The notes under the pieces are model-generated. The model made no database searches. It was not told where the DNA came from and was given only the letters and a program-made list of their open reading frames with translations. Below, one piece after another: positions 1-62,774 of a stretch of 64,000 nt of DNA. How positions within the stretch are numbered: position 1 is the first letter of the stretch; the number at the start of each line of letters is the position of its first letter. The position numbers and the translations under genes are program-made. This DNA is from Eledone cirrhosa (Eukaryota). Location of the stretch: NCBI GenBank assembly GCA_964016885.1, contig OZ024744.1, positions 22,754,001-22,818,000 on the forward strand. Reading direction: 5' to 3'.

Positions 1-3000
1 CCACCGTCAACAAGCCTAACGGAGCCTGCCCACCTTCGACAAACCTAACAGAGTGTATCCATATTCGACAAGTCTAACAGAGACTGCCCACCTTCGACAA
101 ACCTAAAAGAGGCTACCGACCTTCGACAAACCTAACAGAAACTACCCACCCTCGACAAACCTAACAGAGACTGCCCACCATGGACAAAACTAACAGTGAC
201 TGCCCACTTTCGACAAACCTAACAGAGACTGCCTGCCTTCGAGAAGTCTAACAGAGACTAGCCACCTTCGACAAGTCTAACAGAGACTGCCCACCTTCAA
301 CAAGTCTAACAGAGACTGCCCACCTTCGACAAGCCAAACAGAGTCTGCCCACCTTCGACAAACCTAACAGAGACTGCCCACAGTCGAGAAACCTAACAGA
401 GCCTGCCCACCTTTGACTAACCTAACAGAGACTCCCACCTTCGACAAGCCTAACAGAGACTGCCCACCTTCGACAAGCCTAACAGAGACTGCCCACCTTC
501 GACAAACCTAACAGAGACTGTCCACCTTCGACAAACCTAACAGAGACTGGCCACCTTCGACAAGTCTAACAGAGACTGGCCACCTTCGACAAAACTAACA
601 GAGACTGTCCACCTTCGACAAGCCTAACAGAGACTGTCCACCTTCGACAAGCCTAACAGAGACTGCCCACCTTCGACAAACCTAACAGAGACTGTCCACC
701 TTCGACAAGCCTAACAGAGACTGTCCACCTTCGACAAGCCTAACAGAGATTGCCCACCTTCGACAAACCTAACAGAGACTGCCCACTTTCGATAAACGTA
801 ACATAGACTGCCCATCTTCGACAAGCCTAACAAAGATGGCCCCCGTTCGACAAGCCTAACAGAGACTGCCCGCCTTCGACAAACCTAACAGAGACTGCCC
901 ACTTTCGATAAACGTAACATAGACTGCCCATCTTCGACAAGCCTAACAAATATGGCCCCCGTTCGACAAGCCTAACAGAGACTGCCTACCTTAGACAAGT
1001 CTAAGAGATTCGGCCCACCTTCGAAAAGCCTAACAGAGACTGCTCACCTTCGACAAACCTAACGGAGACTGCCCACCTTAGACAAGTGTAACAGAGACTG
1101 CCGACCTTCGACAAGTCTAACAGAGACTGCCTACCTTCAACAAGTCTAACATAGACTGCCCACTTTCGACAAACCTAACAGAGACTGCCCACCCTTGACA
1201 AACCTAACAGAGACTGACCACCTTCGACAAGTCTAATAGAGACGGCCCACTTTCGATGAACGTAACATAGACTGCCCATCTTCTACAAGCCTAACAAAGA
1301 TGGCCCCCGTTCGAGAAGCCTAACAGAGACTGCCTACCTTAGAGAAGTCTAAGAGCGACGGCCCACCTTCGACAAGCCTATCAGAGACTGTCCACCTTCG
1401 TTCGACAAGCCTAACAGACTCTGTCCACCTTCGACAAGCCTAACAGAGACTGCTCACCTTCGACAAACCTAACGGAGACTGCCCACATTTGACAAGTATA
1501 ACAGAGACTGCCCACCTTTTACAAGTCTAACAGAGACTGCCTACCTTCGACAAGTCTAACATGGACTGCCCACTTTCGACAAACCTAACAATGACTGTCC
1601 ACTCTCGACAACCTAACAGTGACTGCCCACTTTTCACAAACCCAACAGAGACTACCGACCTTCGACAAACCTAACAGAGGATACCGTCCTTCGACAAACC
1701 TAACAGAGACTGCCCACCCTCGACAAACCTAACAGTGACTGCCCACCTTCGACAAACCTAACAGTGACTGCCCACTTTCGACAAGCCTAACAGAGACTGC
1801 CTACCTTAGAGAAGTCTAAGAGAGACGGCCCACCTTCGAAAAGCCTAACAGAGACTGCTCACCTTCGACAAACCTAACGGAGACTGCCCACCTTAGACAA
1901 GTGTAACAGAGACTACCCACCTTCGACAAGTCTAACAGAGACTGCCTACCTTCGACAAGTCTAACATAGACTGCCCACTTTCGACAAACCTAACAGAGAC
2001 TGCCCACCCTTGACAAACCTAACAGAGACTGACCACCTTCGGCAAGTCTAATAGAGACTGCCCTTCTTCGACACACCTAACAGAGGCTACCGACCATCGA
2101 CAAACCTAACGGAAACTGCCTACCCTCGACAAACCTAACAGAGACTGCCCACCTTCGACATACCTAACACTGACTGCCCACTTTCTACGAGTCTAATAGA
2201 GACTGCCCACCGTCAACAAGCCTAACGGAGCCTGCCCACCTTCGACAAACCTAACAGAGTGTATCCATATTCGACAAGTCTAACAGAGACTGCCCACCTT
2301 CGACAAACCTAAAAGAGGCTACCGACCTTCGACAAACCTAACAGAAACTACCCACCCTCGACAAACCTAACAGAGACTGCCCACCATGGACAAAACTAAC
2401 AGTGACTGCCCACTTTCGACAAACCTAACAGAGACTGCCTGCCTTCGAGAAGTCTAACAGAGACTAGCCACCTTCGACAAGTCTAACAGAGACTGCCCAC
2501 CTTCAACAAGTCTAACAGAGACTGCCCACCTTCGACAAGACAAACAGAGTCTGCCCACCTTCGACAAACCTAACAGAGACTGCCCACATTCGAGAAACCT
2601 AACAGAGCCTGCCCACCTTTGACTAACCTAACAGAGACTGCCCACCTTCGACAAGCCTAACAGAGACTGCCCACCTTCGACAAACCTAACAGAGACTGTC
2701 CACCTTCGACAAACCTAACAGAGACTGGCCACCTTCGACAAGTCTAACAGAGACTGGCCACCTTCGACAAAACTAACAGAGACTGTCCACCTTCGACAAG
2801 CCTAACAGAGACTGTCCACCTTCGACAAGCCTAACAGAGACTGCCCACCTTCGACAAACCTAACAGAGACTGTCCACCTTCGACAAGCCTAACAGAGACT
2901 GTCCACCTTCGACAAGCCTAACAGAGATTGCCCACCTTCGACAAACCTAACAGAGACTGCCCACTTTCGATAAACGTAACATAGACTGCCCATCTTCGAC

Positions 3001-6000
3001 AAGCCTAACAAAGATGGCCCCCGTTCGACAAGCCTAACAGAGACTGCCCGCCTTCGACAAACCTAACAGAGACTGCCCACTTTCGATAAACGTAACATAG
3101 ACTGCCCATCTTCGACAAGCCTAACAAATATGGCCCCCGTTCGACAAGCCTAACAGAGACTGCCTACCTTAGACAAGTCTAAGAGAGACGGCCCACCTTC
3201 GAAAAGCCTAACAGAGACTGCTCACCTTCGACAAACCTAACGGAGACTGCCCACCTTAGACAAGTGTAACAGAGACTGCCGACCTTCGACAAGTCTAACA
3301 GAGACTGCCTACCTTCAACAAGTCTAACATAGACTGCCCACTTTCGACAAACCTAACAGAGACTGCCCACCCTTGACAAACCTAACAGAGACTGACCACC
3401 TTTGACAAGTCTAATAGAGACGGCCCATCTTCGACAAACCTAACGGAAACTGCCTACCCTCGACAAACCTAACAGAGACTGCCCACCTTCGGCAAACCAA
3501 ACAAAGACTGCCGACCTTCGACAAACCTAACAGAGACTACCCACCTTCGACAAGTCTAATAGAAACTGCCCACCGTCAACAAGCCTTACGGTGACTGCCC
3601 ACCTTCGACAAACCTAACAGAGTGTACCCATATTCGACAAGTCTAACAGAGACTGCCCACCTTCGACAACCCTAACAGAGGCTACCGACCTTCGACAAAC
3701 CTAACAGAAACTACCCACCCTCGACAAACCTAACAGAGACTGCCCACCATGGACAAAACTAACAGTGACTGCCCACTTTCGACAAACCTAATAGAGAAGG
3801 CCTGCCTTCGACAAGTCTAACAGAGACTAGCCACCTTCGACAAGTCTAACAGAGACTGCCCACCTTCAACAAGTCTAACAGAGACTGCCCACCTTCGACA
3901 AACCAAACAGAGACTGCCCACCTTCGACAAACCAAACAGAGTGCCCAACTTCGACAATCCTAACAGAGACTCCCCACCGTTGACAAGCCTAACAGAGATT
4001 CCCCACCTTCGACAAGCCTAACAGAGACTGCCCACATTCGAGAAACCTAACAGAGCCTGCCCACCTTTGACTAACCTAACAGAGTCTCCCACCTTCGACA
4101 AGCCTAACAGAGACTGCCCACCTTCGACAAGCCTAACAGAGACTGCCCACCTTCGACAAACCTAACAGAGACTGTCCACCTTCGACAAGTCTAACAGAGA
4201 CTGGCCACCTTCGACAAAATTAACAGAGACTGTCCACCTTCGACAAGCCTAACAGAGACTGCCCACCTTCGACAAACCTAACAGAGACTGCCCACCTTCG
4301 ACAAACCTAACAGAGACTCTCCACCTTCGACAAGCCTAACAGAGACTGTCCACCTTCGACAAACCTAACAGAGACTTTCCCACCTTCGACAAACCTAACA
4401 GAGACTGCCCACTTCCGATAAACGTAACATAGACTGCCCATCTTCGACAAGCCTAACAAAGAGGGCCCCCGTTCGACAAGCCTAACAGAGACTGCCTACC
4501 TTAGAGAAGTCTAAGAGAGACGGCCCACCTTCGAAAAGCCTAACAGAGACTGCTCACCTTCGACAAATCTAACGGAGACTGCCCACCTTCGACAAGTGTA
4601 ACAGAGACTGCCCACCTTCGACAAGTCTAACAGAGACTGCCTACCTTCGACAAGTCTAACATGGACTGCCCACTTTCGACAAACCTAACAGTGACTGTCC
4701 ACTCTCTACAACCTAACAGTGACTGCCCACTTTCCACAAACCTAACAGAGACTACCGTCCTTCGACAAACCTAACAGAGGCTACCGTCCTTCGACAAACC
4801 TAACAGAGACTGCCCACCTTCGACAAACCTAACAGAGACTGCCCACCTTCGACAAACCTAACAGTGACTGCCCACTTTCGACAAGCCTAACAGAGACTGC
4901 CTACCTTAGACAAGTCTAAGAGAGACGGCCCACCTTCGAAAAGCCTAACAGAGACTGCTCACCTTCGACAAACCTAACGGAGACTGCCCACCTTAGACAA
5001 GTCTAACAGAGACTGCCCACTTTCGACAAACCTAACAGAGACTGCCCACCCTTGACAAACCTAACAGAGACTGACCACCTTCGGCAAGTCTAATAGAGAC
5101 TGCCCATCTTCGACAAACCTAACAGAGGCTACCGACCATCGACAAACCTAACGGAAACTGCCTACCCTCGACAAACCTAGAAGAGACTGCCCACCTTCGA
5201 CAAACCTAACACTGACTGCCCACTTTCTACAAGTCTAATAGAGATTGCCCACCGTCAACAAGCCTAACTGAGACTGCCCACCTTCGACAAACCTAACAGA
5301 GTGTACCCATATTCGACAAGTCTAACAGAGACTGCCCACCTTCGACAAACCTAAAAGAGGCTACCGACCTTCGACAAACCTAACAGAAACTACCCACCCT
5401 CGACAAACCAAACAGAGACTGCCCACCATGGACAAAACTAACAGTGACTGCCCACTTTCGACAAATCTAACAGAGACTCCCTGCCTTCGACAAGTCTAAC
5501 AGAGACTAGCCACCTTCGACAAGTCTAACAGAGACTGCCCACCTTCAACAAGTCTAAGAGAAACTGCCCACCTTCGACAATCCTAACAGAGATTCCCCAC
5601 CTTCGACAAGCCTAACAGAGACTCCCCACCTTCGACAAGCCTAACAGAGACTCCCCACCTTCGACAAGCCTAACAGAGACTGCCCACATTCGAGAAACCT
5701 AACAGAGCCTGCCCACCTTTGACTAACATAACAGAGACTCCCACCTTCGACAAGCCTAACAGAGACTGCCCACCTTCGACAAGCCTAACAGAGACTGCCC
5801 ACCTTCGACAAACCTAACAGAGACTGTCCACCTTCGACAAGCCTAACAGAGACTGCCCACCTTCGACAAACCTAACAGAGACTGTCCACCTTCGACAAGC
5901 CTAACAGAGACTGCCCATCTTCGACAAGCCTAACAGAGACTGCCCACCTTCGACAAACCTAACAGAGACTGTCCACCTTCGACAAACCTAACAGAGACTG

Positions 6001-9000
6001 CCCACCTTCGACAAACCTAACAGAGACTGTCCACCTTCGACAAGCCTAACAGAGACTGCCCACCTTCGACAAGCCTAACAGAGACTGCCCACCTTCGACA
6101 AACCTAACAGAGACTGCCCTCCTTCGACAAGCCTAACAAAGACGGCCCCCGTTCGACAAGCCTAACAGAGACTGCCTACCTTAGACAAGTCTAAGAGAGA
6201 CGGCCCACCTTCGAAAATCCTAACAGAGACTGCTCACCTTCGACAAACCTAACGGAGACTGCCCACTTTCGACAAGTGTAACAGAGACTGCCCACCTTCG
6301 ACAAGTCTAACAGAGACTGCCTACCTTCGACAAATCTAACATGGACTGCCCACTTTCGACAAACCTAACAGTGACTGCCCACTCTCGACAACCTAACAGT
6401 GACTGCCCACTATCCACAGACCTAACAGAGACTACCGACCTTCGACAAACCTAACAGAGGCTACCGACCTTCGACAAACCTAACAGAGACTGCCCACCCT
6501 CGACAAACCTAACAGAGACTGCCCACCTTCGACAAACCTAACAGTGACTGCCCAATTTCGACAAGCCTAACAGAGACTGCCTACCTTAGACAAGTCTAAG
6601 AGAGACGGCCCACCTTCGAAAAGCCTAACAGAGACTGCTCACCTTCGACAAACCTAACGGAGACTGCCCACCTTAGACAAGTGTAACAGAGACTGCCCAC
6701 CTTCGACAAGTCTAACAGAGACTGCCTACCTTCGACAAGTCTAACATGGACTGCCCACTTTCGACAAACCTAACAGAGACTGCCCACCTTTGATAAACCT
6801 AACAGAGACTGACCACCTTCGATAAGTCTAATAGAGACTGCCAATCTTCGACAAACCTAACAGAGGCTACCGACCATCGACTAACCTAACGGAAACTGCC
6901 TACCCTCGACAATCCTAACAGAGACTGCCCACCTTCGACAAACCTAAGAGTGACTGCGCACTTTTGAGAAACCTAACAGAGACTGCCCACCTTCGGCAAA
7001 TCTAACAAAGACTGCCCACCTTCGACAAACCTAACAGAGACTACCCACCTTCGACAAGTCTAATAGAGACTGCCCACCGTCAACAAGCCTAAGGGAGACT
7101 GCTCACCTTCGACAAACCTAACAGAGTGTACCCATATACGACAAGTCTAACAGAGACTGCCCACCTTCGACAAACATAAAAGAGGCTACCGACCTTCGAC
7201 AAACCTAACAGAAACTACCCACCCTCGACAAACCTAACAGAGACTGCCCACCATGGAGAAAACTAACAGTGACGGCCCACTTTCGACAAACCTAACAGAG
7301 ACTGCCTGCCTTCGACAAGTCTAACAGAGACTAGCCACCTTCGACAAGTCTAACAGAGACTGCCCACCTTCAACAAGTCTAACAGAGACTGCCCACCTTC
7401 GACAAACCTAACAGAGACTGCGCACCTTCGACTAACCTAACATAGACTGCCCACCTTCGACAAGCCTAACAGAGACTGCCCAGCTTCGACAAGCCTAACA
7501 GAGACTGCCCACCTTCGAGAAACCTAACAGAGACTACCGTCCGTCGACAAACCTAACAGAGACTGCCTGCCTTCGACAAACCTAACAGAGACTGCCCACC
7601 TTCGACAAACCTAACAGTGACTGCCCACTTTCGACAAACCTAACGGAGACTGCCCACCTTAGACAAGTGTAACAGAGACTGCCCACCTTCGAAAAGCCTA
7701 ACAGAGACTGCTCACCTTCGACAAACCTAACGGAGACTGCCCACCTTAGACAAGTGTAACAGAGACTGCCCACCTTCGACACGTCTAACAGAGACTGCCT
7801 ACCTTCGACAAGTCTAACATAGACTGCCCACTTTCGACAAACCTAACAGAGACTGCCCACCCTTGACAAACCTAACAGAGACTGACCACCTTCGACAAGT
7901 CTAATAGAGACTGCCCATCTTCGACAAACCTAACGGAAACTGCCTACCCTCGACAAACCTAACAGAGACTGCCCACCTTCGGCAAACCAAACAAAGACTG
8001 CCGACCTTCGACAAACCTAACAGAGACTACCCACCTTCGACAAGTCTAATAGAAACTGCCCACCGTCAACAAGCCTTACGGAGACTGCCCACCTTCGACA
8101 AACCTAACAGAGCGTACCCATATTCGACAAGTCTAACAGAGACTGCCTACCTTCGACAACCCTGACAGAGGCTACCGACCTTCGACAAACCTAACAGAAA
8201 CTACCCACCCTCGACAAACCTAACAGAGACTGCCCACCTTGCACAAAACTAACAGTGACTGCCCACTTTCGACAAACCTAACAGAGACGGCCTGCCTTCG
8301 ACAAGTCTAACAGAGACTAGCCACCTTCGACAAGTCTAACAGAGACTGCCCACCTTCAACAAGTCTAACAGAGACTGCCCACCTTCGACAAACCAAACAG
8401 AGTCTGCCCACCTTCGACAAGTCTAAGAGAGACTGCCCAACTTCGACAATCCTAACAGAGACTCCCCACCTTTGACAAGCCTAACAGAGATTCCCCACCT
8501 TCGACAAGCCTAACAGAGACTGCCCACATTCGAGAAACCTAACAGAGCCTGCCCACCTTTGACTAACCTAACAGAGTCTCCCACCTTCGACAAGCCTAAC
8601 AGAGACTGCCCACCTTCGACAAGCCTAACAGAGACTGCCCACCTTCGACAAGTCTAACATGGACTGCCCACTTTCGACAAACCTAACAGTGACTGCCCAC
8701 TCTCGACAACCTAGCAGTGACTGCCCACTTTCCACAAACCTAACAGAGACTACCGACCTTCGACAAACCTAACAGAGGCTACCGACCTTCGACAAACCTA
8801 ACAGAGACTGCCCACCCTCGACAAACCTAACAGAGACTGCCCACCTTCGACAAACCTAACAGTGACTGCCCACTTTCGACAAGCCTAACAGAGACTGCCT
8901 ACCTTAGACAAGTCTAAGAGAGACGGCCCACCTTCGAAAATCCTAACAGAGACTGCTCACCTTCGACAAACCTAACGGAGACTGCCCACTTTCGACAAGT

Positions 9001-12000
9001 GTAACAGAGACTGCCCACCTTCGACAAGTCTAACATGGACTGCCCACTTTCGACAAACCTAACAGTGACTGCCCACTCTCGACAACCTAACAGTGACTGC
9101 CCACTTTCCACAAACCTAACAGAGACTACCGACCTTCGACAAACCTAACAGAGGCTACCGACCTTCGACAAACCTAACAGAGACTGCCCACCCTCGACAA
9201 ACCTAACAGAGACTGCCCACCTTCGACAAACCTAACAGTGACTGCCCACTTTCGACAAGCCTAACAGAGACTGCCTACCTTAGACAAGTCTAAGAGAGAC
9301 GGCCCACCTTCGAAAAGCCTAACAGAGACTGCTCACCTTCGACAAACCTAACGGAGACTGCCCACCTTAGACAAGTGTAACAGAGACTGCCCACCTTCGA
9401 CAAATCTAACAGAGACTGCCTACCTTCGACAAGTCTAACATAGACCGCCCACTTTCGACAAACCTAACAGAGACTGCACACCCTTGACAAACCTAACAGA
9501 GACTGACCACCTTCGACAAGTCTAATAGAGACTGCCCATCTTCGACAAACCTAACAGAGGCTACCGACCATCGACAAACCTAACGGAAACTGCCTACCCT
9601 CGACTAACCTAACAGAGACTGCCCACCTTCGACAAGCCTAACAGAGACTGCCCACCTTCGACAAACCTAACACTGACTGCCCACTTTCGACAAGTTGAAT
9701 AGAGACTGCCCACCGTCAACAAGCCTAACGGAGACTGCCCATCTTCGACAAACCTAACAGAGTGTACCCATATTCGACAAGTCTAACAGAGACTGCCCAC
9801 ACTCGACAAACCTAAAAGAGGCTACCGACCTTCGACAAACCTAACAGAAACTACCCACCCTCGACAAACCTAACAGAGACTGCCCACCATGGACAAACCT
9901 AACAGAGACTGCCCACCATGGACAAAACTAACAGTGACTGCCCACTTTCGACAAACCTAACAGAGACTGTCCACCTTCGACAAACCTAACAGAGACTGTC
10001 CACCTTCGACAAGCCAAACAGAGATTCCCCACCTTCGACAAGCCTAACAGAGACTGCCCACATTCGAGAAACCTAACAGAGCCTGCCCACCTTTGACTAA
10101 CCTAACAGAGAATCCCACCTTCGACAAGCCTAACAGAGACTGCCCACCTTCGACAAGCCTAACAGAGACTGCCCACCTTCGACAAACCTAACAGAGACTG
10201 TCCACCTTCGACAAGCCTAACAGAGACTGTCCACCTTCGACAAACCTAACAGAGACTGCCGACCTTCGACAAACGTAACGGAAACTGCCTACCCTCGACA
10301 AACCTAGAAGAGACTGCCCACCTTCGACAAACCTAACACTGACTGCCCACTTTCTACAAGTCTAATAGAGATTGCCCACCGTCAACAAGCCTAACTGAGA
10401 CTGCCCACCTTCGACAAACCTAACAGAGTGTACCCATATTCGACAAGTCTAACAGAGACTGCCCACCTTCGACAAACCTAAAAGAGGCTACCGACCTTCG
10501 ACAAACCTAACAGAAACTACCCACCCTCGACAAACCAAACAGAGACTGCCCACCATGGACAAAACTAACAGTGACTGCCCACTTTCGACAAATCTAACAG
10601 AGACTCCCTGCCTTCGACAAGTCTAACAGAGACTAGCCACCTTCGACAAGTCTAACAGAGACTGCCCACCTTCAACAAGTCTAAGAGAAACTGCCCACCT
10701 TCGACAATCCTAACAGAGATTCCCCACCTTCGACAAGCCTAACAGAGACTCCCCACCTTCGACAAGCCTAACAGAGACTCCCCACCTTCGACAAGCCTAA
10801 CAGAGACTGCCCACATTCGAGAAAGCTAACAGAGCCTGCCCACCTTTGACTAACATAACAGAGACTCCCACCTTCGACAAGCCTAACAGAGACTGCCCAC
10901 CTTCGACAAGCCTAACAGAGACTGCCCACCTTCGACAAACCTAACAGAGACTGTCCACCTTCGACAAGCCTAACAGAGACTGCCCACCTTCGACAAACCT
11001 AACAGAGACTGTCCACCTTCGACAAGCCTAACAGAGACTGCCCATCTTCGACAAGCCTAACAGAGACTGCCCACATTCGACAAACCTAACAGAGACTGTC
11101 CACCTTCGACAAACCTAACAGAGACTGCCCACCTTCGACAAACCTAACAGAGACTGTCCACCTTCGACAAGCCTAACAGAGACTGCCCACCTTCGACAAG
11201 CCTAACAGAGACTGCTCACCTTCGACAAACCTAACAGAGACTGCCCTCCTTCGACAAGCCTAACAAAGACGGCCCCCGTTCGACAAGCCTAACAGAGACT
11301 GCCTACCTTAGACAAGTCTAAGAGAGACGGCCCACCTTCGAAAATCCTAACAGAGACTGCTCACCTTCGACAAACCTAACGGAGACTGCCCACTTTCGAC
11401 AAGTGTAACAGAGACTGCCCACCTTCGACAAGTCTAACAGAGACTGCCTACCTTCGACAAATCTAACATGGACTGCCCACTTTCGACAAACCTAACAGTG
11501 ACTGCCCACTCTCGACAACCTAACAGTGACTGCCCACTATCCACAGACCTAACAGAGACTACCGACCTTCGACAAACCTAACAGAGGCTACCGACCTTCG
11601 ACAAACCTAACAGAGACTGCCCACCCTCGACAAACCTAACAGAGACTGCCCACCTTCGACAAACCTAACAGTGACTGCCCAATTTCGACAAGCCTAACAG
11701 AGACTGCCTACCTTAGACAAGTCTAAGAGAGACGGCCCACCTTCGAAAAGCCTAACAGAGACTGCTCACCTTCGACAAACCTAACGGAGACTGCCCACCT
11801 TAGACAAGTGTAACAGAGACTGCCCACCTTCGACAAGTCTAACAGAGACTGCCTACCTTCGACAAGTCTAACATGGACTGCCCACTTTCGACAAACCTAA
11901 CAGAGACTGCCCACCTTTGATAAACCTAACAGAGACTGACCACCTTCGATAAGTCTAATAGAGACTGCCAATCTTCGACAAACCTAACAGAGGCTACCGA

Positions 12001-15000
12001 CCATCGACTAACCTAACGGAAACTGCCTACCCTCGACAATCCTAACAGAGACTGCCCACCTTCGACAAACCTAAGAGTGACTGCGCACTTTTGAGAAACC
12101 TAACAGAGACTGCCCACCTTCGGCAAATCTAACAAAGACTGCCCACCTTCGACAAACCTAACAGAGACTACCCACCTTCGACAAGTCTAATAGAGACTGC
12201 CCACCGTCAACAAGCCTAAGGGAGACTGCTCACCTTCGACAAACCTAACAGAGTGTACCCATATACGACAAGTCTAACAGAGACTGCCCACCTTCGACAA
12301 ACATAAAAGAGGCTACCGACCTTCGACAAACCTAACAGAAACTACCCACCCTCGACAAACCTAACAGAGACTGCCCACCATGGAGAAAACTAACAGTGAC
12401 GGCCCACTTTCGACAAACCTAACAGAGACTGCCTGCCTTCGACAAGTCTAACAGAGACTAGCCACCTTCGACAAGTCTAACAGAGACTGCCCACCTTCAA
12501 CAAGTCTAACAGAGACTGCCCACCTTCGACAAACCTAACAGAGACTGCGCACCTTCGACTAACCTAACATAGACTGCCCACCTTCGACAAGCCTAACAGA
12601 GACTGCCCAGCTTCGACAAGCCTAACAGAGACTGCCCACCTTCGAGAAACCTAACAGAGACTACCGTCCGTCGACAAACCTAACAGAGACTGCCTGCCTT
12701 CGACAAACCTAACAGAGACTGCCCACCTTCGACAAACCTAACAGTGACTGCCCACTTTCGACAAACCTAACGGAGACTGCCCACCTTAGACAAGTGTAAC
12801 AGAGACTGCCCACCTTCGAAAAGCCTAACAGAGACTGCTCACCTTCGACAAACCTAACGGAGACTGCCCACCTTAGACAAGTGTAACAGAGACTGCCCAC
12901 CTTCGACACGTCTAACAGAGACTGCCTACCTTCGACAAGTCTAACATAGACTGCCCACTTTCGACAAACCTAACAGAGACTGCCCACCCTTGACAAACCT
13001 AACAGAGACTGACCACCTTCGACAAGTCTAATAGAGACTGCCCATCTTCGACAAACCTAACGGAAACTGCCTACCCTCGACAAACCTAACAGAGACTGCC
13101 CACCTTCGGCAAACCAAACAAAGACTGCCGACCTTCGACAAACCTAACAGAGACTACCCACCTTCGACAAGTCTAATAGAAACTGCCCACCGTCAACAAG
13201 CCTTACGGAGACTGCCCACCTTCGACAAACCTAACAGAGCGTACCCATATTCGACAAGTCTAACAGAGACTGCCTACCTTCGACAACCCTGACAGAGGCT
13301 ACCGACCTTCGACAAACCTAACAGAAACTACCCACCCTCGACAAACCTAACAGAGACTGCCCACCTTGCACAAAACTAACAGTGACTGCCCACTTTCGAC
13401 AAACCTAACAGAGACGGCCTGCCTTCGACAAGTCTAACAGAGACTAGCCACCTTCGACAAGTCTAACAGAGACTGCCCACCTTCAACAAGTCTAACAGAG
13501 ACTGCCCACCTTCGACAAACCAAACAGAGTCTGCCCACCTTCGACAAGTCTAAGAGAGACTGCCCAACTTCGACAATCCTAACAGAGACTCCCCACCTTT
13601 GACAAGCCTAACAGAGATTCCCCACCTTCGACAAGCCTAACAGAGACTGCCCACATTCGAGAAACCTAACAGAGCCTGCCCACCTTTGACTAACCTAACA
13701 GAGTCTCCCACCTTCGACAAGCCTAACAGAGACTGCCCACCTTCGACAAGCCTAACAGAGACTGCCCACCTTCGACAAGTCTAACATGGACTGCCCACTT
13801 TCGACAAACCTAACAGTGACTGCCCACTCTCGACAACCTAGCAGTGACTGCCCACTTTCCACAAACCTAACAGAGACTACCGACCTTCGACAAACCTAAC
13901 AGAGGCTACCGACCTTCGACAAACCTAACAGAGACTGCCCACCCTCGACAAACCTAACAGAGACTGCCCACCTTCGACAAACCTAACAGTGACTGCCCAC
14001 TTTCGACAAGCCTAACAGAGACTGCCTACCTTAGACAAGTCTAAGAGAGACGGCCCACCTTCGAAAATCCTAACAGAGACTGCTCACCTTCGACAAACCT
14101 AACGGAGACTGCCCACTTTCGACAAGTGTAACAGAGACTGCCCACCTTCGACAAGTCTAACATGGACTGCCCACTTTCGACAAACCTAACAGTGACTGCC
14201 CACTCTCGACAACCTAACAGTGACTGCCCACTTTCCACAAACCTAACAGAGACTACCGACCTTCGACAAACCTAACAGAGGCTACCGACCTTCGACAAAC
14301 CTAACAGAGACTGCCCACCCTCGACAAACCTAACAGAGACTGCCCACCTTCGACAAACCTAACAGTGACTGCCCACTTTCGACAAGCCTAACAGAGACTG
14401 CCTACCTTAGACAAGTCTAAGAGAGACGGCCCACCTTCGAAAAGCCTAACAGAGACTGCTCACCTTCGACAAACCTAACGGAGACTGCCCACCTTAGACA
14501 AGTGTAACAGAGACTGCCCACCTTCGACAAATCTAACAGAGACTGCCTACCTTCGACAAGTCTAACATAGACCGCCCACTTTCGACAAACCTAACAGAGA
14601 CTGCACACCCTTGACAAACCTAACAGAGACTGACCACCTTCGACAAGTCTAATAGAGACTGCCCATCTTCGACAAACCTAACAGAGGCTACCGACCATCG
14701 ACAAACCTAACGGAAACTGCCTACCCTCGACTAACCTAACAGAGACTGCCCACCTTCGACAAGCCTAACAGAGACTGCCCACCTTCGACAAACCTAACAC
14801 TGACTGCCCACTTTCGACAAGTTGAATAGAGACTGCCCACCGTCAACAAGCCTAACGGAGACTGCCCATCTTCGACAAACCTAACAGAGTGTACCCATAT
14901 TCGACAAGTCTAACAGAGACTGCCCACACTCGACAAACCTAAAAGAGGCTACCGACCTTCGACAAACCTAACAGAAACTACCCACCCTCGACAAACCTAA

Positions 15001-17516
15001 CAGAGACTGCCCACCATGGACAAACCTAACAGAGACTGCCCACCATGGACAAAACTAACAGTGACTGCCCACTTTCGACAAACCTAACAGAGACTGTCCA
15101 CCTTCGACAAACCTAACAGAGACTGTCCACCTTCGACAAGCCAAACAGAGATTCCCCACCTTCGACAAGCCTAACAGAGACTGCCCACATTCGAGAAACC
15201 TAACAGAGCCTGCCCACCTTTGACTAACCTAACAGAGAATCCCACCTTCGACAAGCCTAACAGAGACTGCCCACCTTCGACAAGCCTAACAGAGACTGCC
15301 CACCTTCGACAAACCTAACAGAGACTGTCCACCTTCGACAAGCCTAACAGAGACTGTCCACCTTCGACAAACCTAACAGAGACTGCCGACCTTCGACAAA
15401 CCTAACAGAGACTGTCCACCTTCGACAAGCCTAACAGAGACTGTCCACCTTCGACAAACCTAACAGAGACTGCCCACCTTCGACAAACCTAACAGAGACT
15501 GCCCACCTTCGACAAACCTAACAGAGACTGTCCACCTTCGACAAGCCTAACAGAGACTGTCCACCTTCGACAAGCCTAACAGAGACTGCCCACCTTCGAC
15601 AAACCTAACAGAGACTGCCCACTTTCGATAAACGTAACATAGACTGCCCATCTTCGACAAGCCTAACAAAGATGGCCCCCGTTCGACAAGCCTAACAGAG
15701 ACTGCCTACCTTAGACAAGTCTACGAGAGACGGCCCACCTTCGAAAATCCTAACAGAGACTGCTCACCTTAGACAAACCTAACGGAGACTGCCCACTTTC
15801 GACAAGTGTAACAGAGACTGCCCACCTTCGACAAGTCTAACAGAGACTTCCTACCTTCGACAAATCTAACATGGACTGCCTACTTTCGACAAACCTAACA
15901 GTGACTGCCCACTCTCGACAACCTAACAGTGACTGCCCACTATCCACAAACCTAACAGAGACTACCGACCTTCGACAAACCTAACAGAGGCTACCGACCT
16001 TCGACAAACCTAACAGAGACAGCCCACCCTCGACAAACCTAACAGAGACTGCCCACCTTCGACAAACCTAACAGTGACTGCCCAATTTCGACAAGCCTAA
16101 CAGAGACTGCCTACCTTAGACAAGTCTAAGAGAGACGGCCCACCTTCGAAAAGCCTAACAGAGACTGCTCACCTTCGACAAACCTAACGGAGTCTGCCCA
16201 CCTTAGACAAGTGTAACAGAGACTGCCCACCTTCGACAAGTCTAACAGAGACTGCCTACCTTCGACAAGTCTAACATGGACTGCCCACTTTCGACAAACC
16301 TAACAGAGACTGCCCACCCTTGACAAACCTAACAGAGACTGACCACCTTCGACAAGTCTAATAGAGACTGCCAATCTTCGACAAACCTAACAGAGGCTAC
16401 CGACCATCGACAAACCTAACGTTAACTGCCTACCCTCGACAAACCTAACAGAGACTGCCCACCTTCTACAAACCTAACACTGACTGCCCACTTTCGAGAA
16501 ACCTAACAGAGACTGCCCACCTTCAGCAAACCTAACAAAGACTGCCGACCTTCGACAAACCTAACAGAGACTACCCACCTTCGACAAGTCTAATAGAGAC
16601 TGCCCACCGTTAACAAGCCTAAGGGAGACTGCTCACCTTCGACAAACCTAACAGAGTGTACCCATATTCGACAAGTCTAACAGAGACTGCCCACCTTCGA
16701 CAAACATAAAAGAGGCTACCGACCTTCGACAAACCTAACAGAAACTACCCACCCTCGACAAACCTAACAGAGACTGCCCACCATGGAGAAAACTAACAGT
16801 GACTGCCCACCTTCGAGAAACCTAACAGAAACTACCGTCCGTCGACAAACCAAACAGAGACTAGCCACCTTCGACAAGTCTAAGAGAGACTGCCCACCTT
16901 CGACAATCCTAACAGAGACTGCCCACCTTCGACAAGCCTAACAGAGATTCCCCACCTTCGAAAAGCCTAACAGAGACTGCCCACCTTCGACAAACCTAAC
17001 AGAGCCTGCCCACCTTTGACTAACCTAACAGAGACTCCCACCTTCGACAAGCCTAACAGAGACTGCCCACCTTCAACAAGCCTAACAGAGACTGGCCACA
17101 TTCGACAAACCTAACAGAGACTGTCCACCTTCGACAAGCTTAACAGAGACTGTCCACCTTCGACAAGCCTAACAGAGACTGCCCACCTTCGACAAACCTA
17201 ACAGAGACTGTCCACCTTCGACAAGCCTAACAGAGACTGCCCACCTTCGACAAACCTAACAGAGACTGTCCACCTTCGACAAGCCTAACAGAGACTGTCC
17301 ACCTTCGACAAGCCTAACAGAGACTGCCCACCTATGACAAGCCTAACAGAGACTGCCCACCTTCGACAAGTCTAACAGAGACTACCCACCTATGACAAGC
17401 CTAACAGAGACTGCCCACCTTCGACAAGTCTAACAGAGACTACCCACCTTCGACAAGCCTAACAGAGACTGCCCACCTTCGACAACTCTAACAGAGACTA
17501 CCCGCCTTTTCAAACT
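1..17516. repeat. 29-bp satellite array (consensus AACAGAGACTGCCCACCTTCGACAAACCT), roughly 600 monomers, open at the window's left edge
   Basis: Continuous head-to-tail monomers. The spurious ORFs inside show a 29-aa (87 bp = 3x29) period. The array decays at CCCGCCTTTTCAAACTC (~17516). Confidence 0.97.
5150..15401. repeat. Near-identical 5,127-bp tandem duplication within the satellite (about 5150-10276 and 10277-15401)
   Basis: Identical ORFs at 7582/12709 and 8914/14041 (offset 5127). Rare variants such as CCTAGAAG, CTGCACACC and GTTGAATAG recur at the same offset. Confidence 0.92.
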
Positions 17517-30476: not shown

Positions 30477-31310
30477 TCTAATATATATTTGTGAAATGGG
30501 TGGTGGTTGAAATTCAGATGTGCACGGTTAAATGGTAGTAGACGTGGTCGGACTGAGATGAAAATTTACACACCTATGTGAAAAGTGCCAAGGAAGCAAA
30601 TAGACGAGGTTTCAAATCTCTAACTTGAAAAATGTGGTTCCTAGGGCCCCCAAACGGTCTATTTACTATCGCGTTCGGTGAGTTATTTCCCCGTTCTAAT
30701 ACATGGATGAGTTATTTACAATTTCACGTTCTTTCGCTGTTAATATACAGTACCAATTATTGAGAGTTTATTATAAAGAAGCAGTTTCTGGAAAAAAAAT
30801 AGAAATATGCACTTGGGGCTGGACAGCGTACAAATGAGAATTGGAGCGACGTGAAAAGCGTTGTTTATTAACAGCGAAATAGCAATGTCGAAGATATGCA
30901 AGTTTGAAAATTCAGATTAATAAACTGTTGCCTTCAACAGTACGTTTCATTTTCACTGTACCGTTTTATGAAATCGATTCTGCAGTACGGTCACTGTTTT
31001 CCATCAAAAGAAATAAAACCCTTAAATTGCGTAGAAGGTACGCGTGTTTTTATTTTAATTCTAATACATGTTAACCACCACTAACAGTAAGTAGCATTTT
31101 TCAAATTGCATATCATCGACATTGCTATTTCGCTGTTAATAAACAACGCTTTTCACGTCACTCCACTTCTCATTGTACGCCGTCCAGCCCCAAGTGTATA
31201 TTTCTATTTTTTTGCCTGAAACTGCTTCTTTATAATAAACTTTCAATAATATTTTTCAAATTATTAACTTAATAAAAAGTGGCCCAGAGTGCAACCGGGC
31301 TCAGCTGCTA

Positions 31311-31311
<1 letters not shown>
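30477..31311 (+). mobile_element. Non-autonomous Helitron
   Basis: 5' A|TCTAATATATA. 3' GC-rich hairpin GCCC..GGGC followed by CTAG|T. Inserted between A and T with no TSD. Confidence 0.8.
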
Positions 31312-31371
<60 letters not shown>

Positions 31372-31706
31372 ATTATGATCAATTCCTTAAATATCAGTCA
31401 GATTGTCTTCCAAATGCCTAGGCCAACAGGAATGCTAGAAATAACTCAACGTTATGTCCTTATGTCAGCTCTAATTAATTAAAATTCTTTCTAAAAAAAT
31501 AACTTTTGGAGCGATAATAAAATTGTATATATATATATAATAAAATTATATATATATATATAATAAAATTATATATATATATATATATATATATTATAAA
31601 ATTATATATATATATATATATATATAATTTTATTATTGCCCCTAAAGTAATTTACCTTTTCTACAGAATTACCTAAGGTATATATGTATGTGTGTGTATA
31701 TATATA

Positions 31707-31804
<98 letters not shown>

Positions 31805-32178
31805 TAGAATTGGAGCTCTGAAATAGCAATATATATATGGATGTATATATAATGTATTTTGCAATACACTTTATGCTTAATTAAAAGCATTTTGAAGACC
31901 GTATGCTATTGTTTTAGCGTAGTGACAAATTCACTTACTTTAATCTCAGCAAACAGGGGAGATAAGCCGACAAGGCCTTGTTTCGCTTTTGTTGAAGCTT
32001 ATCAAGGCTAACTACTCCGACCTGTCTACCGAGATTACTGATGTTATATTCTTATAGAATTCTAGTAAATAATCAGGAGCTGATTATACAGAGCGGTTGT
32101 TGGTCAGGCACAAATTAAAAATTAGAATTGGAGCTCTGAAATAGCAATATATATATGGATGTATATATAATGTATTTT
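31805..32178 (-). mobile_element. Hammerhead-bearing non-coding element (retrozyme/Penelope pLTR-like), 318-bp unit plus 56-bp repeat
   Basis: Direct repeat 31805-31860 / 32123-32178. Homologous to 60617-60933 and 61703-61775. Confidence 0.75.
31963..32010 (-). ncRNA. Type I hammerhead ribozyme with mutated core
   Basis: AGCC-TTGATAA-GCTT caacaa AAGC-GAAA-CAAGGCCTTG-TC-GGCT. Stems intact, but core CUGANGA is altered to UUGAUAA. Confidence 0.7.

Positions 32179-32180: not shown

Positions 32181-32250
<70 letters not shown>
32180..32250. repeat. (TAGA)n microsatellite
   Basis: Direct reading. Confidence 0.95.
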
Positions 32251-32465
32251 TGTAAGCTATCGCCGTATTTTGACTATAGAAATTAAAGAAATTATTTAGC
32301 CTGGTAGTGGGGTTAAGAACCCTCGGAGAAATGGAAAAAGATGAGTATTGACGTACATGTACGTCAATACTCATCTTTTTCCATTTCTCCGAGGGTTCTT
32401 AACCCCACTACCAGGCTAAATAATTTCTTTAATTTCTATAGTCAAAATACGGCGATAGCTTACAT
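32250..32465. repeat. 216-bp perfect spacerless palindrome
   Basis: Centre GTACA|TGTAC at 32357/32358. Identical ORFs on both strands (32180..32374 - and 32341..32526 +). Confidence 0.95.
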
Positions 32466-60353: not shown

Positions 60354-60434
60354 GATAAACAGAAATAACAACACAATCGGTACAGTATATGGAAGGAATA
60401 TATTAGGTTAACGCTTGATATAGCATGAAGAGGG

Positions 60435-60470
60435 TCTTAACGTTTCGGACGCTAGTCCTTCATCGGAAGA
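60435..60470 (-). ncRNA. Minimal Penelope-type hammerhead motif (U4C variant)
   Basis: TCTT-CCGATGA-A-GGAC tagc GTCC-GAAA-CG-TT-AAGA. Confidence 0.6.
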
Positions 60471-60616
60471 AAGAATGAGAAATAAGATAGATTGAGGTGA
60501 CGGTCAGGTTGGAAATGGAAAAAATGTCTGAAACTGGATACCAGCCCGGAGTACACCTGAACTTCCAACAGGAAATCTTTCCTATCATTGAAATTTTCTT
60601 TGCTTCTTATACATAT

Positions 60617-60933
60617 AAATTATGAATGTTGGATTCTTATAGAATTCCAGTAATAATTAGTTCCTGATTATTACTGGAATTCTATAAGAATCCAACATTC
60701 ATAATTTCCAACAAACAAGGGGAATGCTAAGCTCTGAGGAATACCAACAGTATGAAACAGAGATCTGTCAGCTTATCTCCCTTTGTTTGTTGAAAAAAGA
60801 AGTAAGTGACATAGTCACTACTTTAAAATAGCCCAAGGTCTGCAAAATGCTTTTAATTAAGCATACAGTGTATTGCAAAATACACTATATACACATTCAT
60901 ATGTATATCGCTATTTCAGAGCACCAATTCTAA
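60617..60933 (+). mobile_element. Hammerhead-bearing element (same family as 31805-32178) with a 5' fold-back at 60617-60707
   Basis: Shared GAATTCTATAAGAAT, CTTATCTCCC, AAAATGCTTTTAATTAAGCATA and GCTATTTCAGAGC.CCAATTCTA. Confidence 0.78.
60728..60775 (+). ncRNA. Canonical type I hammerhead ribozyme
   Basis: TAAGCT-CTGAGGA-ATAC caaca GTAT-GAAA-CAG agat CTG-TC-AGCTTA. Intact CUGANGA/GAAA/GUC core. Predicted cleavage after C60769. Confidence 0.88.
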
Positions 60934-60950
60934 TATATATATATATATAT

Positions 60951-61605
60951 AGGCTGTTTGTTTGTTTACAAACGAACAAACCGAGCATTATAATAAATGT
61001 TCGGTAAACTGATACGTGCATATATATATGTGTGCCTGTATGTATATATATACATGTTACTGTACGTATGTATACATATATGTATGTACGTATACATACA
61101 TACTTACATTTAAGTAAGTGCCGTACTAAGAGTGAGAAATGAAATTTCGTTTCATTCTATTCCATTTATCGTTTTAGGTGTGCCTGGCCGACTGAACTCA
61201 CTCGATATGCAAATTAGGCTGCTCAGCCGTTAATTTTCATAAGGAAAGTATATACTTTCGGACGTTCAACCATCTGGCAGAAAGGTATACGGTGATGACG
61301 ATAGCTAATAAGCTTGAAACTAGTACATCGTTCCTGTGTCAGTGTTGAACAAAAAGGTGACGTGGTTGCCTAAACACTGTACGGCGTAATTCAGGCTGTT
61401 TGTTTGTTTACAAACGAACAAACCGAGCATTATAATAAATGTTCGGTAAACTGATACGTGCATATATATATGTGTGCCTGTATGTATATATATACATGCT
61501 ACTGTACGTCTGTATACATATATGTATGTACGTATACATACATACTTACATTTAAGTAAGTGCCGTACTAAGAGTGAGAAATGAAATTTCGTTTCATTAT
61601 ATTCC

Positions 61606-61610
<5 letters not shown>
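60951..61610 (+). mobile_element. Non-coding element, 442-bp unit plus 218-bp repeat, hammerhead-bearing, in (TA)n
   Basis: Direct repeat 60951-61168 / 61393-61610. Confidence 0.75.
61290..61330 (+). ncRNA. Minimal hammerhead motif (C3A variant)
   Basis: CGGTG-ATGACGA-TAGCT aata AGCTT-GAAA-CTAG-TA-CATCG, with palindromic stem III. Confidence 0.6.
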
Positions 61611-61704
<94 letters not shown>

Positions 61705-62774
61705 TTAGAATTGGAGCTCTGAAATAGCGATATATATATAAATGTATGTATAGTGTATTTTGCAATACACTGTATATATATATATTAAAATAACAGATTA
61801 AAGTTTTAGCAAAGAATCACTGCTGTCACCCTTAACGGGATATTCTGAAATAAAAAAAAAATCAATCTGAGAACGCAGGAGTAAATATTTCGAAAAACGT
61901 TGCAACCGAAGGAAAACAGGAAGACGATATTTTGGTTCGTGAAGACGTTCCCTGGCAATGAACGAAAAAAACCGAAGATAATACATCGTTATGAGGATCG
62001 GAGAGAAGAATAACACGCCAAGATAAAACCACGTTTCTGGTATAAATGAACTCGTAGACTAATGTTCTATTTAGGAAACCAAATGATTCTCGGCTTCAGA
62101 GTTAAGAATAAAGTAAATAAATTAGTAGAACGAAAATGACAGAGGTTATTAAAATCAATAATAATTAAATATATACAAACACACATCTATATACGTACCT
62201 ACACAGCCATAAGCGAAAACACCCGCCATGCATGCATATACATGCACATACACAAAACACGCGCACACATACATAAACCCGCGCGACACATGTACCAGCA
62301 CACATACGAACGTATACACCAAATGCCCCCTCCCAAACAAAAATATATATGTATGTGTATACATATAATAAACGTATACAAATATACACGCATAAATACG
62401 TATATAACGCACGCACACACACACCTACAGGTAAATACACATGTTCACCAAACGTACGTCAACCAAACACAAAGTACGCATATACACACCTAACATACGT
62501 GCAAACATGCATACACACATACAAACACAAACACAAAATACACATATACACATAACTATACGCACATGTACCGGTATATATAATATAACATATATACCTA
62601 TAACAAATACAAGCGTATATATGTACGAGAAAGTATACGTACCTCCACAAAACATACGGGTAAGATCTACTTACCTATACAAATAAGTAATGGTATAAAC
62701 ATAAAATATACTTAGCTACCACATCGAGAGGTAAATTATCCGCGTATTGTTCGTACTATCCGTTAGGGTATAAT

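What the first reader, a model, noticed from the sequence alone, without database searches (positions are those of the whole stretch)
31805..32178. Retrozyme-like architecture: 318-bp ORF-less monomer plus partial repeat, with a fixed 3' junction to TA tracts
One unit plus 56 bp of the next is what reverse transcription around a circular or multimeric RNA would leave. All three family copies (31805, 60933, 61703) end at the same ...CCAATTCTA point against TA or a TA-adjacent microsatellite, suggesting a defined priming site. A circular RNA intermediate is inference. Tandem pLTRs of a truncated Penelope element are the alternative.
Basis: partly seen in the sequence, partly recalled or inferred. 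Interest (0 to 1): 0.7.

Follow-up and report, generated by a model that had tools for sequence, protein, structure and literature searches.

The report
Penelope-copied hammerhead repeat, two priming sites
This is one copy of a young, protein-free 318-base repeat with a predicted self-cutting RNA motif, present well over a thousand times in this animal genome; its insertions likely were made by a Penelope-type jumping-gene enzyme, at least sometimes likely from an uncut chain of units rather than from the RNA circle usually assumed.

Summary
Observation confirmed: a 318-bp ORF-less unit plus an identical 56-bp repeat, sense on the minus strand, ending in (TA)n. It carries a type I hammerhead with a U3-A8 core (covariation in 15 of 29 pairs). 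The copies at 60933 and 61703 belong to a sister family, 79% alike, with a C3-G8 core. A tail 25-mer occurs 1,870 times. In 140 loci the 3' ends fall at two sites about 26-33 nt apart, not one. Head-to-head insertions pair one long with one short end in 69 of 73 cases, as an active Neptune-type Penelope element of this genome does; six loci are joined to Neptune-type DNA. No parent ORF was found. Arms read through the cut site, and 5' ends do not pile up there. Rare variants shared by both arms in the same unit counted from the 3' end (7 seen, 0.27 expected) cannot come from a monomer circle, so some templates were likely uncut multimers. Circles are neither shown nor excluded. Verdict: new member of the animal non-LTR retrozymes. 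The scan noted the two-armed layout before, in other repeats of this genome, and read it as rolling on a circle.

The parts
31805..32178 (-). Whole insertion, 374 bp: a solo 5'-truncated arm with the long (tailed) 3' end, family A
   Evidence: row L001: 5' at monomer position 263, 3' at 318
31805..32122 (-). One full 318-bp unit, ORF-less, GC 34%, folds better than shuffles (z -4.9 linear, -6.5 circular; antisense -2.7)
32123..32178 (-). Last 56 nt of the preceding unit (monomer 263-318), identical to 31805-31860; 5' truncation point
31963..32011 (-). Type I hammerhead: stem I, core UUGAUAA (U3-A8) at 32005-31999, 4-bp stem II, GAAA, palindromic stem III, GUC with predicted cut after 31969
   Evidence: (Rfam HH9, E 0.0056, below gathering score)
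31940..32037 (-). Long outer stem (32037-32021 with 31956-31940) closing the hammerhead; would hold the two ends of a cut monomer together
   Evidence: (7 of 15 pairs change on both sides)
31805..31828 (-). 'Tail' between the short end (31829, end of the internal AT run, monomer 294) and the long end (monomer 318 plus 0-14 nt)
31526..31803 (.). (TA)n target tract at the 3' junction
32181..32250 (.). (TAGA)17.5 at the 5' junction
60618..60935 (+). Sister family B copy: long end at 60935, short inverted 5' arm forming the palindrome 60618-60706, hammerhead with C3-G8 core at 60734 and predicted cut after 60769
61703..61775 (-). 73-bp 3' fragment of family B with the long end

Best explanation
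It is a 5'-truncated copy of a young, non-coding, hammerhead-bearing tandem repeat (an animal non-LTR retrozyme) that is likely copied in trans by a Neptune-type Penelope-like element into (TA)n tracts, at least in part likely from uncut multi-unit RNA. Shown: family size and youth, tandem and head-to-head layout, two fixed 3' ends, long-with-short pairing, TA targets, read-through of cut sites, direct joins to Neptune-type DNA, a conserved hammerhead fold. Inferred: the PLE endonuclease cuts both strands of (TA)n; both DNA ends prime reverse transcription inside the same unit of the RNA, one at the long site and one at the short site; the two cDNAs are joined 5' to 5', or one is lost (the window's copy). 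Inferred further: one RNA primed twice by a dimeric enzyme explains the strict pairing. Some insertions later grow by tandem amplification. Self-cleavage, transcription and circles are untested.
For: Ends: monomer 294 in 90 of 244 arms, 318+2/+7/+9 in 104; 194 of 213 classified ends run into TA-rich DNA. Pairing long+short in 69 of 73 classifiable head-to-head insertions (30/30, 15/17, 24/26; the 15/17 set was picked by a mid-unit motif, without bias for ends). A young Neptune-type element (RT, CX4CXXC, C-terminal GIY-YIG; 99% identical copies) has two ends into (TA)n, paired the same way in 5 loci. Neptune-type DNA abuts family A arms in 8 of 140 loci; in 6 (L002, L135, L184, L198, L201, L215) the join lies inside the PLE, without a TA tract in 5; such DNA covers 1.7% of the other flanks. 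Arms of one insertion share their haplotype in 55 of 61 long+short pairs; 23% of arm pairs from different loci do. Rare alleles shared across arms in the same unit from the 3' end: 7 in 8,810 sites, 0.27 expected; L139, L183, L185 and L212 fit 3'-anchored and not centre-anchored pairing. 5' ends uniform (chi-square p 0.11), 10 of 213 near the cut site against 7.4 expected. Covariation 15 of 29 pairs, 0 of 500 shuffles. In vitro, a PLE primes at two internal sites and uses uncut RNA (PMC11167929).
Against: No sequence homology between families A/B and the Neptune pLTR (best E 0.15), so the partner rests on joins and shared footprint. Head-to-head joins also occur with another hammerhead element (L027) and, by my reading of the flank, an RTE LINE (L194); nested insertion in shared TA-rich sites explains some joins (L003, L175). 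The Neptune tail is about 57 nt, the retrozyme's 26-33 nt. Overall divergence in and off register does not differ (1.85% vs 2.14%, Wilcoxon p 0.33, 46 insertions). In L153, L156, L163 and L008 units of one arm share alleles that the in-register unit of the other arm lacks: this needs later duplication or two RNAs. Only 7-8 of 68 insertions are informative on the template; the rest fit circles equally well.
Confidence: 0.75

Rival explanations
1. The dominant template is a 318-nt monomer circle, cut and ligated at the hammerhead site, round which the PLE reverse transcriptase rolls from both DNA ends (first reader; Cervera and de la Pena model; earlier scan notes). Not exclusive of the best explanation: it differs in what most events used.
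For: Units of one insertion share one haplotype; one complete subfamily is star-like (median 0.7% from its majority); no fixed 5' end; hammerhead and outer stem are kept by compensatory change between source lineages; arrays that shrink by 5' truncation need a way to regrow; circles are shown by northern blot for coral, mussel and axolotl retrozymes (PMC7229834).
Against: A monomer circle cannot give both arms the same variant in one unit and not in its neighbour. L208 is a 14-unit arm of mosaic units 12.8 differences apart in a subfamily about 1% old. Tandem growth in DNA is evident (C8 array), so regrowth needs no circle.
Confidence: 0.3
2. The units are pLTRs of an autonomous Penelope-like element, seen only as truncated pieces.
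For: Tail, inversions, TA targets and a type I hammerhead are all pLTR features (PMC8557442 passages; PMC4209133 passages). Retrozymes are proposed to derive from pLTRs (preprint 10.64898/2026.07.22.740005).
Against: Upstream of a unit lies another unit, an inversion or unique DNA; 0 of 47 solo arms has sense-strand PLE coding DNA within 900 bp upstream; joins to Neptune fall at different points of both partners; arms reach 14 units; no ORF. Limit: 140 family A and 30 family B loci seen, three PLE probes.
Confidence: 0.07
3. A DNA-level repeat: a satellite or Helitron-like element spread by rolling-circle DNA replication, with chance ends in AT runs.
For: The window's copy ends CTAG-T; head-to-tail units; one array of about 73 kb. 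The short end lies in the unit's own AT run.
Against: Other copies end CTAA plus 1-14 nt; no fixed 5' end; RNA-level covariation of a ribozyme; slippage into the flank would give long/long and short/short pairs, seen in 4 of 73.
Confidence: 0.02

Closest known systems
Animal non-LTR retrozymes (Cervera and de la Pena 2020, PMC7229834: abstract, passages, sections 14 and 17 read; Li, Clavereau and Pollet 2026, 10.64898/2026.07.22.740005: parts 1-3 of 5 read)
   Same: ORF-less ~300-bp low-GC tandem units, each with a type I hammerhead; monomers, dimers and long arrays; PLE proposed as the mover.
   Different: U3-A8 core and a 4-bp stem III that could fold within one unit; head-to-head arms with paired long/short ends; joins to Neptune-type DNA; no homology to the partner's pLTR; evidence for uncut multimer templates. 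Expression and circles not shown here.
Penelope-like elements, Neptune/Nematis type (Craig et al. 2021, PMC8557442: passages read; Frangieh et al. 2024, PMC11167929: parts 1-2 of 4 read)
   Same: 5' truncation, partial tandems, inverted 5' copy, a 30-40-bp tail at one end only, AT-rich/(TA)n targets, two internal RT start sites, uncut RNA as substrate in vitro.
   Different: No RT or endonuclease ORF; the whole element is one pLTR-sized unit. The clade label of the partner rests on the CX2-5CxxC motif and domain order named in PMC8557442, not on a tree.
Schistosoma mansoni PLE hammerhead variant with U3-A8 (Cervera and de la Pena 2014, PMC4209133: passages read)
   Same: Same compensatory swap in the catalytic core; palindromic stem III.
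   Different: There mostly single minimal motifs; here it is fixed in a tandem family whose sister families B and D keep C3-G8.

Membership tests
Animal non-LTR retrozyme | Short (170-400 nt) tandem units, GC below 45-50% | tested here: met
   318 bp, GC 0.34; arms of 1-14 units
Animal non-LTR retrozyme | Type I hammerhead in each unit | tested here: met
   Motif parse; 12 core positions intact in 214 of 253 dispersed full units and 84 of 90 array units; covariation. Rfam only below its gathering score
Animal non-LTR retrozyme | No ORF, LTR, PBS or PPT | tested here: met
   Longest open stretch 52 codons; 5' ends variable, no terminal repeat structure; PBS/PPT judged by eye only
Animal non-LTR retrozyme | At least two consecutive hammerheads (the 'active' criterion of Li et al. 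2026) | tested here: inconclusive
   Not met by the window's copy (one hammerhead); met by the family: 64 of 213 arms cross two or more cut sites
Animal non-LTR retrozyme | Self-cleavage | not testable with these tools
   Needs in vitro transcription
Animal non-LTR retrozyme | Expressed as linear and circular monomer RNA | not testable with these tools
Animal non-LTR retrozyme | Long target-site duplications when present | not tested
   Cannot be read inside (TA)n
Autonomous Penelope-like element (pLTR of one) | RT and GIY-YIG ORF in register with the repeat | tested here: not met
   sample of 140 + 30 loci
PLE-mobilised insertion | Tail at one end only, inverted 5' copy, 5' truncation, microsatellite target | tested here: met
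Helitron / DNA rolling-circle element | Fixed 5' end and CTRR 3' end with hairpin | tested here: not met
   5' ends uniform, 3' ends at two internal sites

The most novel reading that the evidence does not exclude
These insertions record the Penelope integration reaction: a dimeric Neptune enzyme primes both ends of a double-strand break at two neighbouring sites of one uncut multimeric RNA, the second polymerase displacing the first cDNA, which makes the tail, the inversion and the strict long/short pairing. Retrozymes would then spread as uncut chains, with the ribozyme limiting rather than enabling transposition (2 of the 8 in-register variants, in L172 and L185, break the hammerhead core of inner units), against the published circle model.
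Probability: 0.35. Interest if true: 0.72.

Novelty: new member of a known kind. Interest (0 to 1): 0.5.

Why it matters
The element class is known, but how it moves is proposed, not shown, in the papers read: a circle template and a PLE partner. This family gives genomic evidence on both. It names a candidate partner that is still young and intact enough to test, two exact priming sites, and a way to tell circle from chain by counting variants shared between arms. If the count holds genome-wide, the circle model is at best partial. It also offers a natural U3-A8 / C3-G8 ribozyme pair, and shows a dispersed insertion becoming a satellite of about 73 kb.

Tried and rejected
RNA: no RNA holder listed; contigs of four runs of unknown kind were laid and say nothing on expression or circles. 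Rfam at gathering threshold: 0 matches in the window; the 60734 hammerhead was not listed even by E-value. Pile-up of 5' or odd 3' ends at the cut site: none; L215 joins one base short of it, a single case. C8 array as the source of dispersed copies: array units differ by 9 on average and dispersed units match only its near-consensus unit. Fold-back copying of one arm from the other: the short-end arm is the longer in 33 of 68, lengths uncorrelated. Centre-nucleated gene conversion: fails for L139, L183, L185, L212; fits only L227, 8 nt from the centre. Genome search with family D returned nothing (common words are skipped, so no count). Partner protein: only a weak RVT_1 match in Pfam (E 3e-4), none in PDB. 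One search used a structure string one column off; one search replaces it. Rows dropped before counts: the duplicated second copy in L184, an older-family arm in L159, a family B arm in L222, overlapping loci L024 and L026, L208; masked columns 1-10, 100-107, 144-150 and 263-296. Paper searches listed no paper on this family, on cephalopod retrozymes, or on long/short pairing in retrozymes; supplements were not read and may list such repeats (PMC7229834 Figs S6, S9; preprint tables).

Full report
Observation. The repeat is as described: 31805-31860 equals 32123-32178 at 56 of 56 bases, period 318, no open stretch above 52 codons, between (TA)n and (TAGA)n. Sense is the minus strand. The other two window copies share the 3' end but belong to a sister family B, 79% identical to A over the unit.

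Ribozyme. A motif scan of the whole window gave three parses, two of them in these copies. Family A has core UUGAUAA, a 4-bp stem II, GAAA, a palindromic stem III and GUC, cut predicted after 31969; family B has CUGAGGA; a third, 310-bp family D (L104) has CUGAUGA and shares the 3' half and tail. Rfam gives HH9 at E 0.0056, below gathering. On 12 rows chosen for variety, 96% of cells pair and 15 of 29 pairs change on both sides, including the core 3-8 pair and a 15-bp outer stem; slid controls pair 34-47%. The structure was drawn from these sequences, so this count leans in its favour. The U3-A8 swap is known from Schistosoma PLE hammerheads (PMC4209133 passages). The unit folds better than shuffles (z -4.9); the isolated hammerhead does not (z -1.2), and its predicted minimum-energy fold is an inactive one.

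Family. The own genome (3.0 Gb) gives 145 matches from 39 scored of 1,395 candidates, the full-length ones 91-100% identical; the tail 25-mer occurs 1,870 times, a family B motif 184 times. I analysed 140 family A loci: 52 in positional order on C1, all 45 further loci of one subfamily motif, and 43 near the window's haplotype. One array on C8 spans about 73 kb, with an ordinary long end into (TA)n and a 5' truncation; 20 kb of its middle was not fetched.

Ends. Of 244 arms, 90 end at monomer 294 (short end, at the unit's own AT run) and most others at 318 plus 0-14 nt (long end); 31 end elsewhere. 194 of 213 classified ends run into TA-rich DNA. 97 insertions are head-to-head; among 73 with two classified ends, 69 pair long with short, 3 long with long, 1 short with short. 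A tail at one end only, inverted 5' copies and microsatellite targets are described for PLEs (PMC8557442 passages), and the tail is the stretch between two internal RT start sites (PMC11167929). The window's copy is a solo long-end arm.

Partner. L081 holds family A units joined to a nearly complete PLE: a 924-codon frame with RT, CX4CXXC and C-terminal GIY-YIG, i.e. Neptune/Nematis type by the motif named in PMC8557442. Its copies are 99% identical and have two ends about 57 nt apart into (TA)n, paired likewise. Its pLTR has its own hammerhead-like core and no homology to A or B. Neptune-type DNA abuts retrozyme arms in 8 of 140 loci, where 1.7% flank cover and 83 free ends predict one or two. 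L135 and L201 are zero-gap head-to-head joins of one PLE arm and one retrozyme arm; L184, L198 and L215 are same-direction joins, as a template switch would leave; L003 and L175 look like later PLE insertions. Head-to-head joins with other repeats exist too (L027, L194), so the partner is likely, not proven. No solo arm has sense-strand PLE coding DNA upstream (0 of 47).

Template. 187 of 213 arms cross at least one cut site and 64 cross two or more; 5' ends are uniform, with no excess at the cut. So the template was a circle or an uncut chain, not a cut linear monomer. Both arms carry the same haplotype in 55 of 61 long+short pairs, the six others differing at two sites only, against 23% between loci; 2 of 3 long+long pairs are discordant. 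A monomer circle makes all units alike at birth. Yet rare alleles present in some units only are shared across arms in the same unit counted from the 3' end: 7 in 8,810 sites against 0.27 expected from the between-insertion rate; of 3 off-register cases, two are extra inner carriers of an in-register allele and one lies 8 nt from the centre. An eighth case (L212) passes the filter. Four cases fit only 3' anchoring. These insertions were likely copied from chains of non-identical units, both ends primed in the same unit. Against: overall divergence in and off register is alike; four insertions show one-arm sharing that needs later duplication or two RNAs; about 60 of 68 insertions are silent and fit circles.

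Mechanism. Shown are the footprints above. Inferred: PLE cleavage of (TA)n on both strands, priming at two adjacent internal sites, 5'-5' joining or loss of one arm, later tandem growth. One RNA primed twice is the simplest reason for the strict pairing, but two transcripts of one locus with an asymmetric enzyme fit as well.

Novelty. The class, its PLE link and the core variant are in print; the family and the paired-arm variant test were not found in six paper searches. Eight earlier scan notes describe retrozyme repeats of 310-600 bp in this genome, most with two arms and a circle reading; a look-up by this unit's sequence found none. I had the pairing result before that look-up. The notes are unchecked and were not counted as support. 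That the host is a cephalopod comes from those notes and from recall, not from a call. Score 0.5: an ordinary member of a known class whose copies make an open mechanistic question testable.

Noticed in passing
window 60385-60615 (-): A different small repeat (family C, 1,960 candidates) with a minimal hammerhead-like motif (core CCGAUGA or CUGAUGA) and a fixed 3' end into (CA)n/(TA)n; no upstream PLE ORF seen in the 19 of 21 loci that could be anchored. It shares a TA tract with the family B copy.
   Followed up: partly
window 32251-32464: Perfect 214-bp palindrome right after the (TAGA)n tract; related sequence in at least 7 other fetched loci. Possibly another head-to-head insertion or a MITE.
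   Followed up: partly
window 30800-31312: Inverted-repeat element ending in a short GC hairpin and CTAG against (TA)n, which by recall looks like a Helitron 3' end.
   Followed up: no
window 1-17508: 29-bp satellite, 604 copies.
   Followed up: no
window 60953-61160 and 61390-61610: Two near-identical ~210-bp blocks next to the family B copies.
   Followed up: no
L104 150-1030: Family D: very young 310-bp tandem units, identical by eye, with C3-G8 hammerhead, sharing tail and 3' half with A and B; probably the 310-bp family of earlier scan notes.
   Followed up: partly
G000:C8:32194239-32267132 (L248, L083-L085, L249, L250): About 73-kb satellite of family A grown from one insertion with normal ends; 84 of 90 units keep the hammerhead core.
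   Followed up: partly
L081 2880-6955: Young Neptune-type PLE family, 1,167 candidates, best 40 about 99% identical, likely recently active; a second Neptune-type family (59% amino-acid identity) and at least two other PLE types occur in flanks.
   Followed up: partly
L215, L223, L225: Arms or insertions that mix haplotypes, pointing to template switches or two RNAs.
   Followed up: partly
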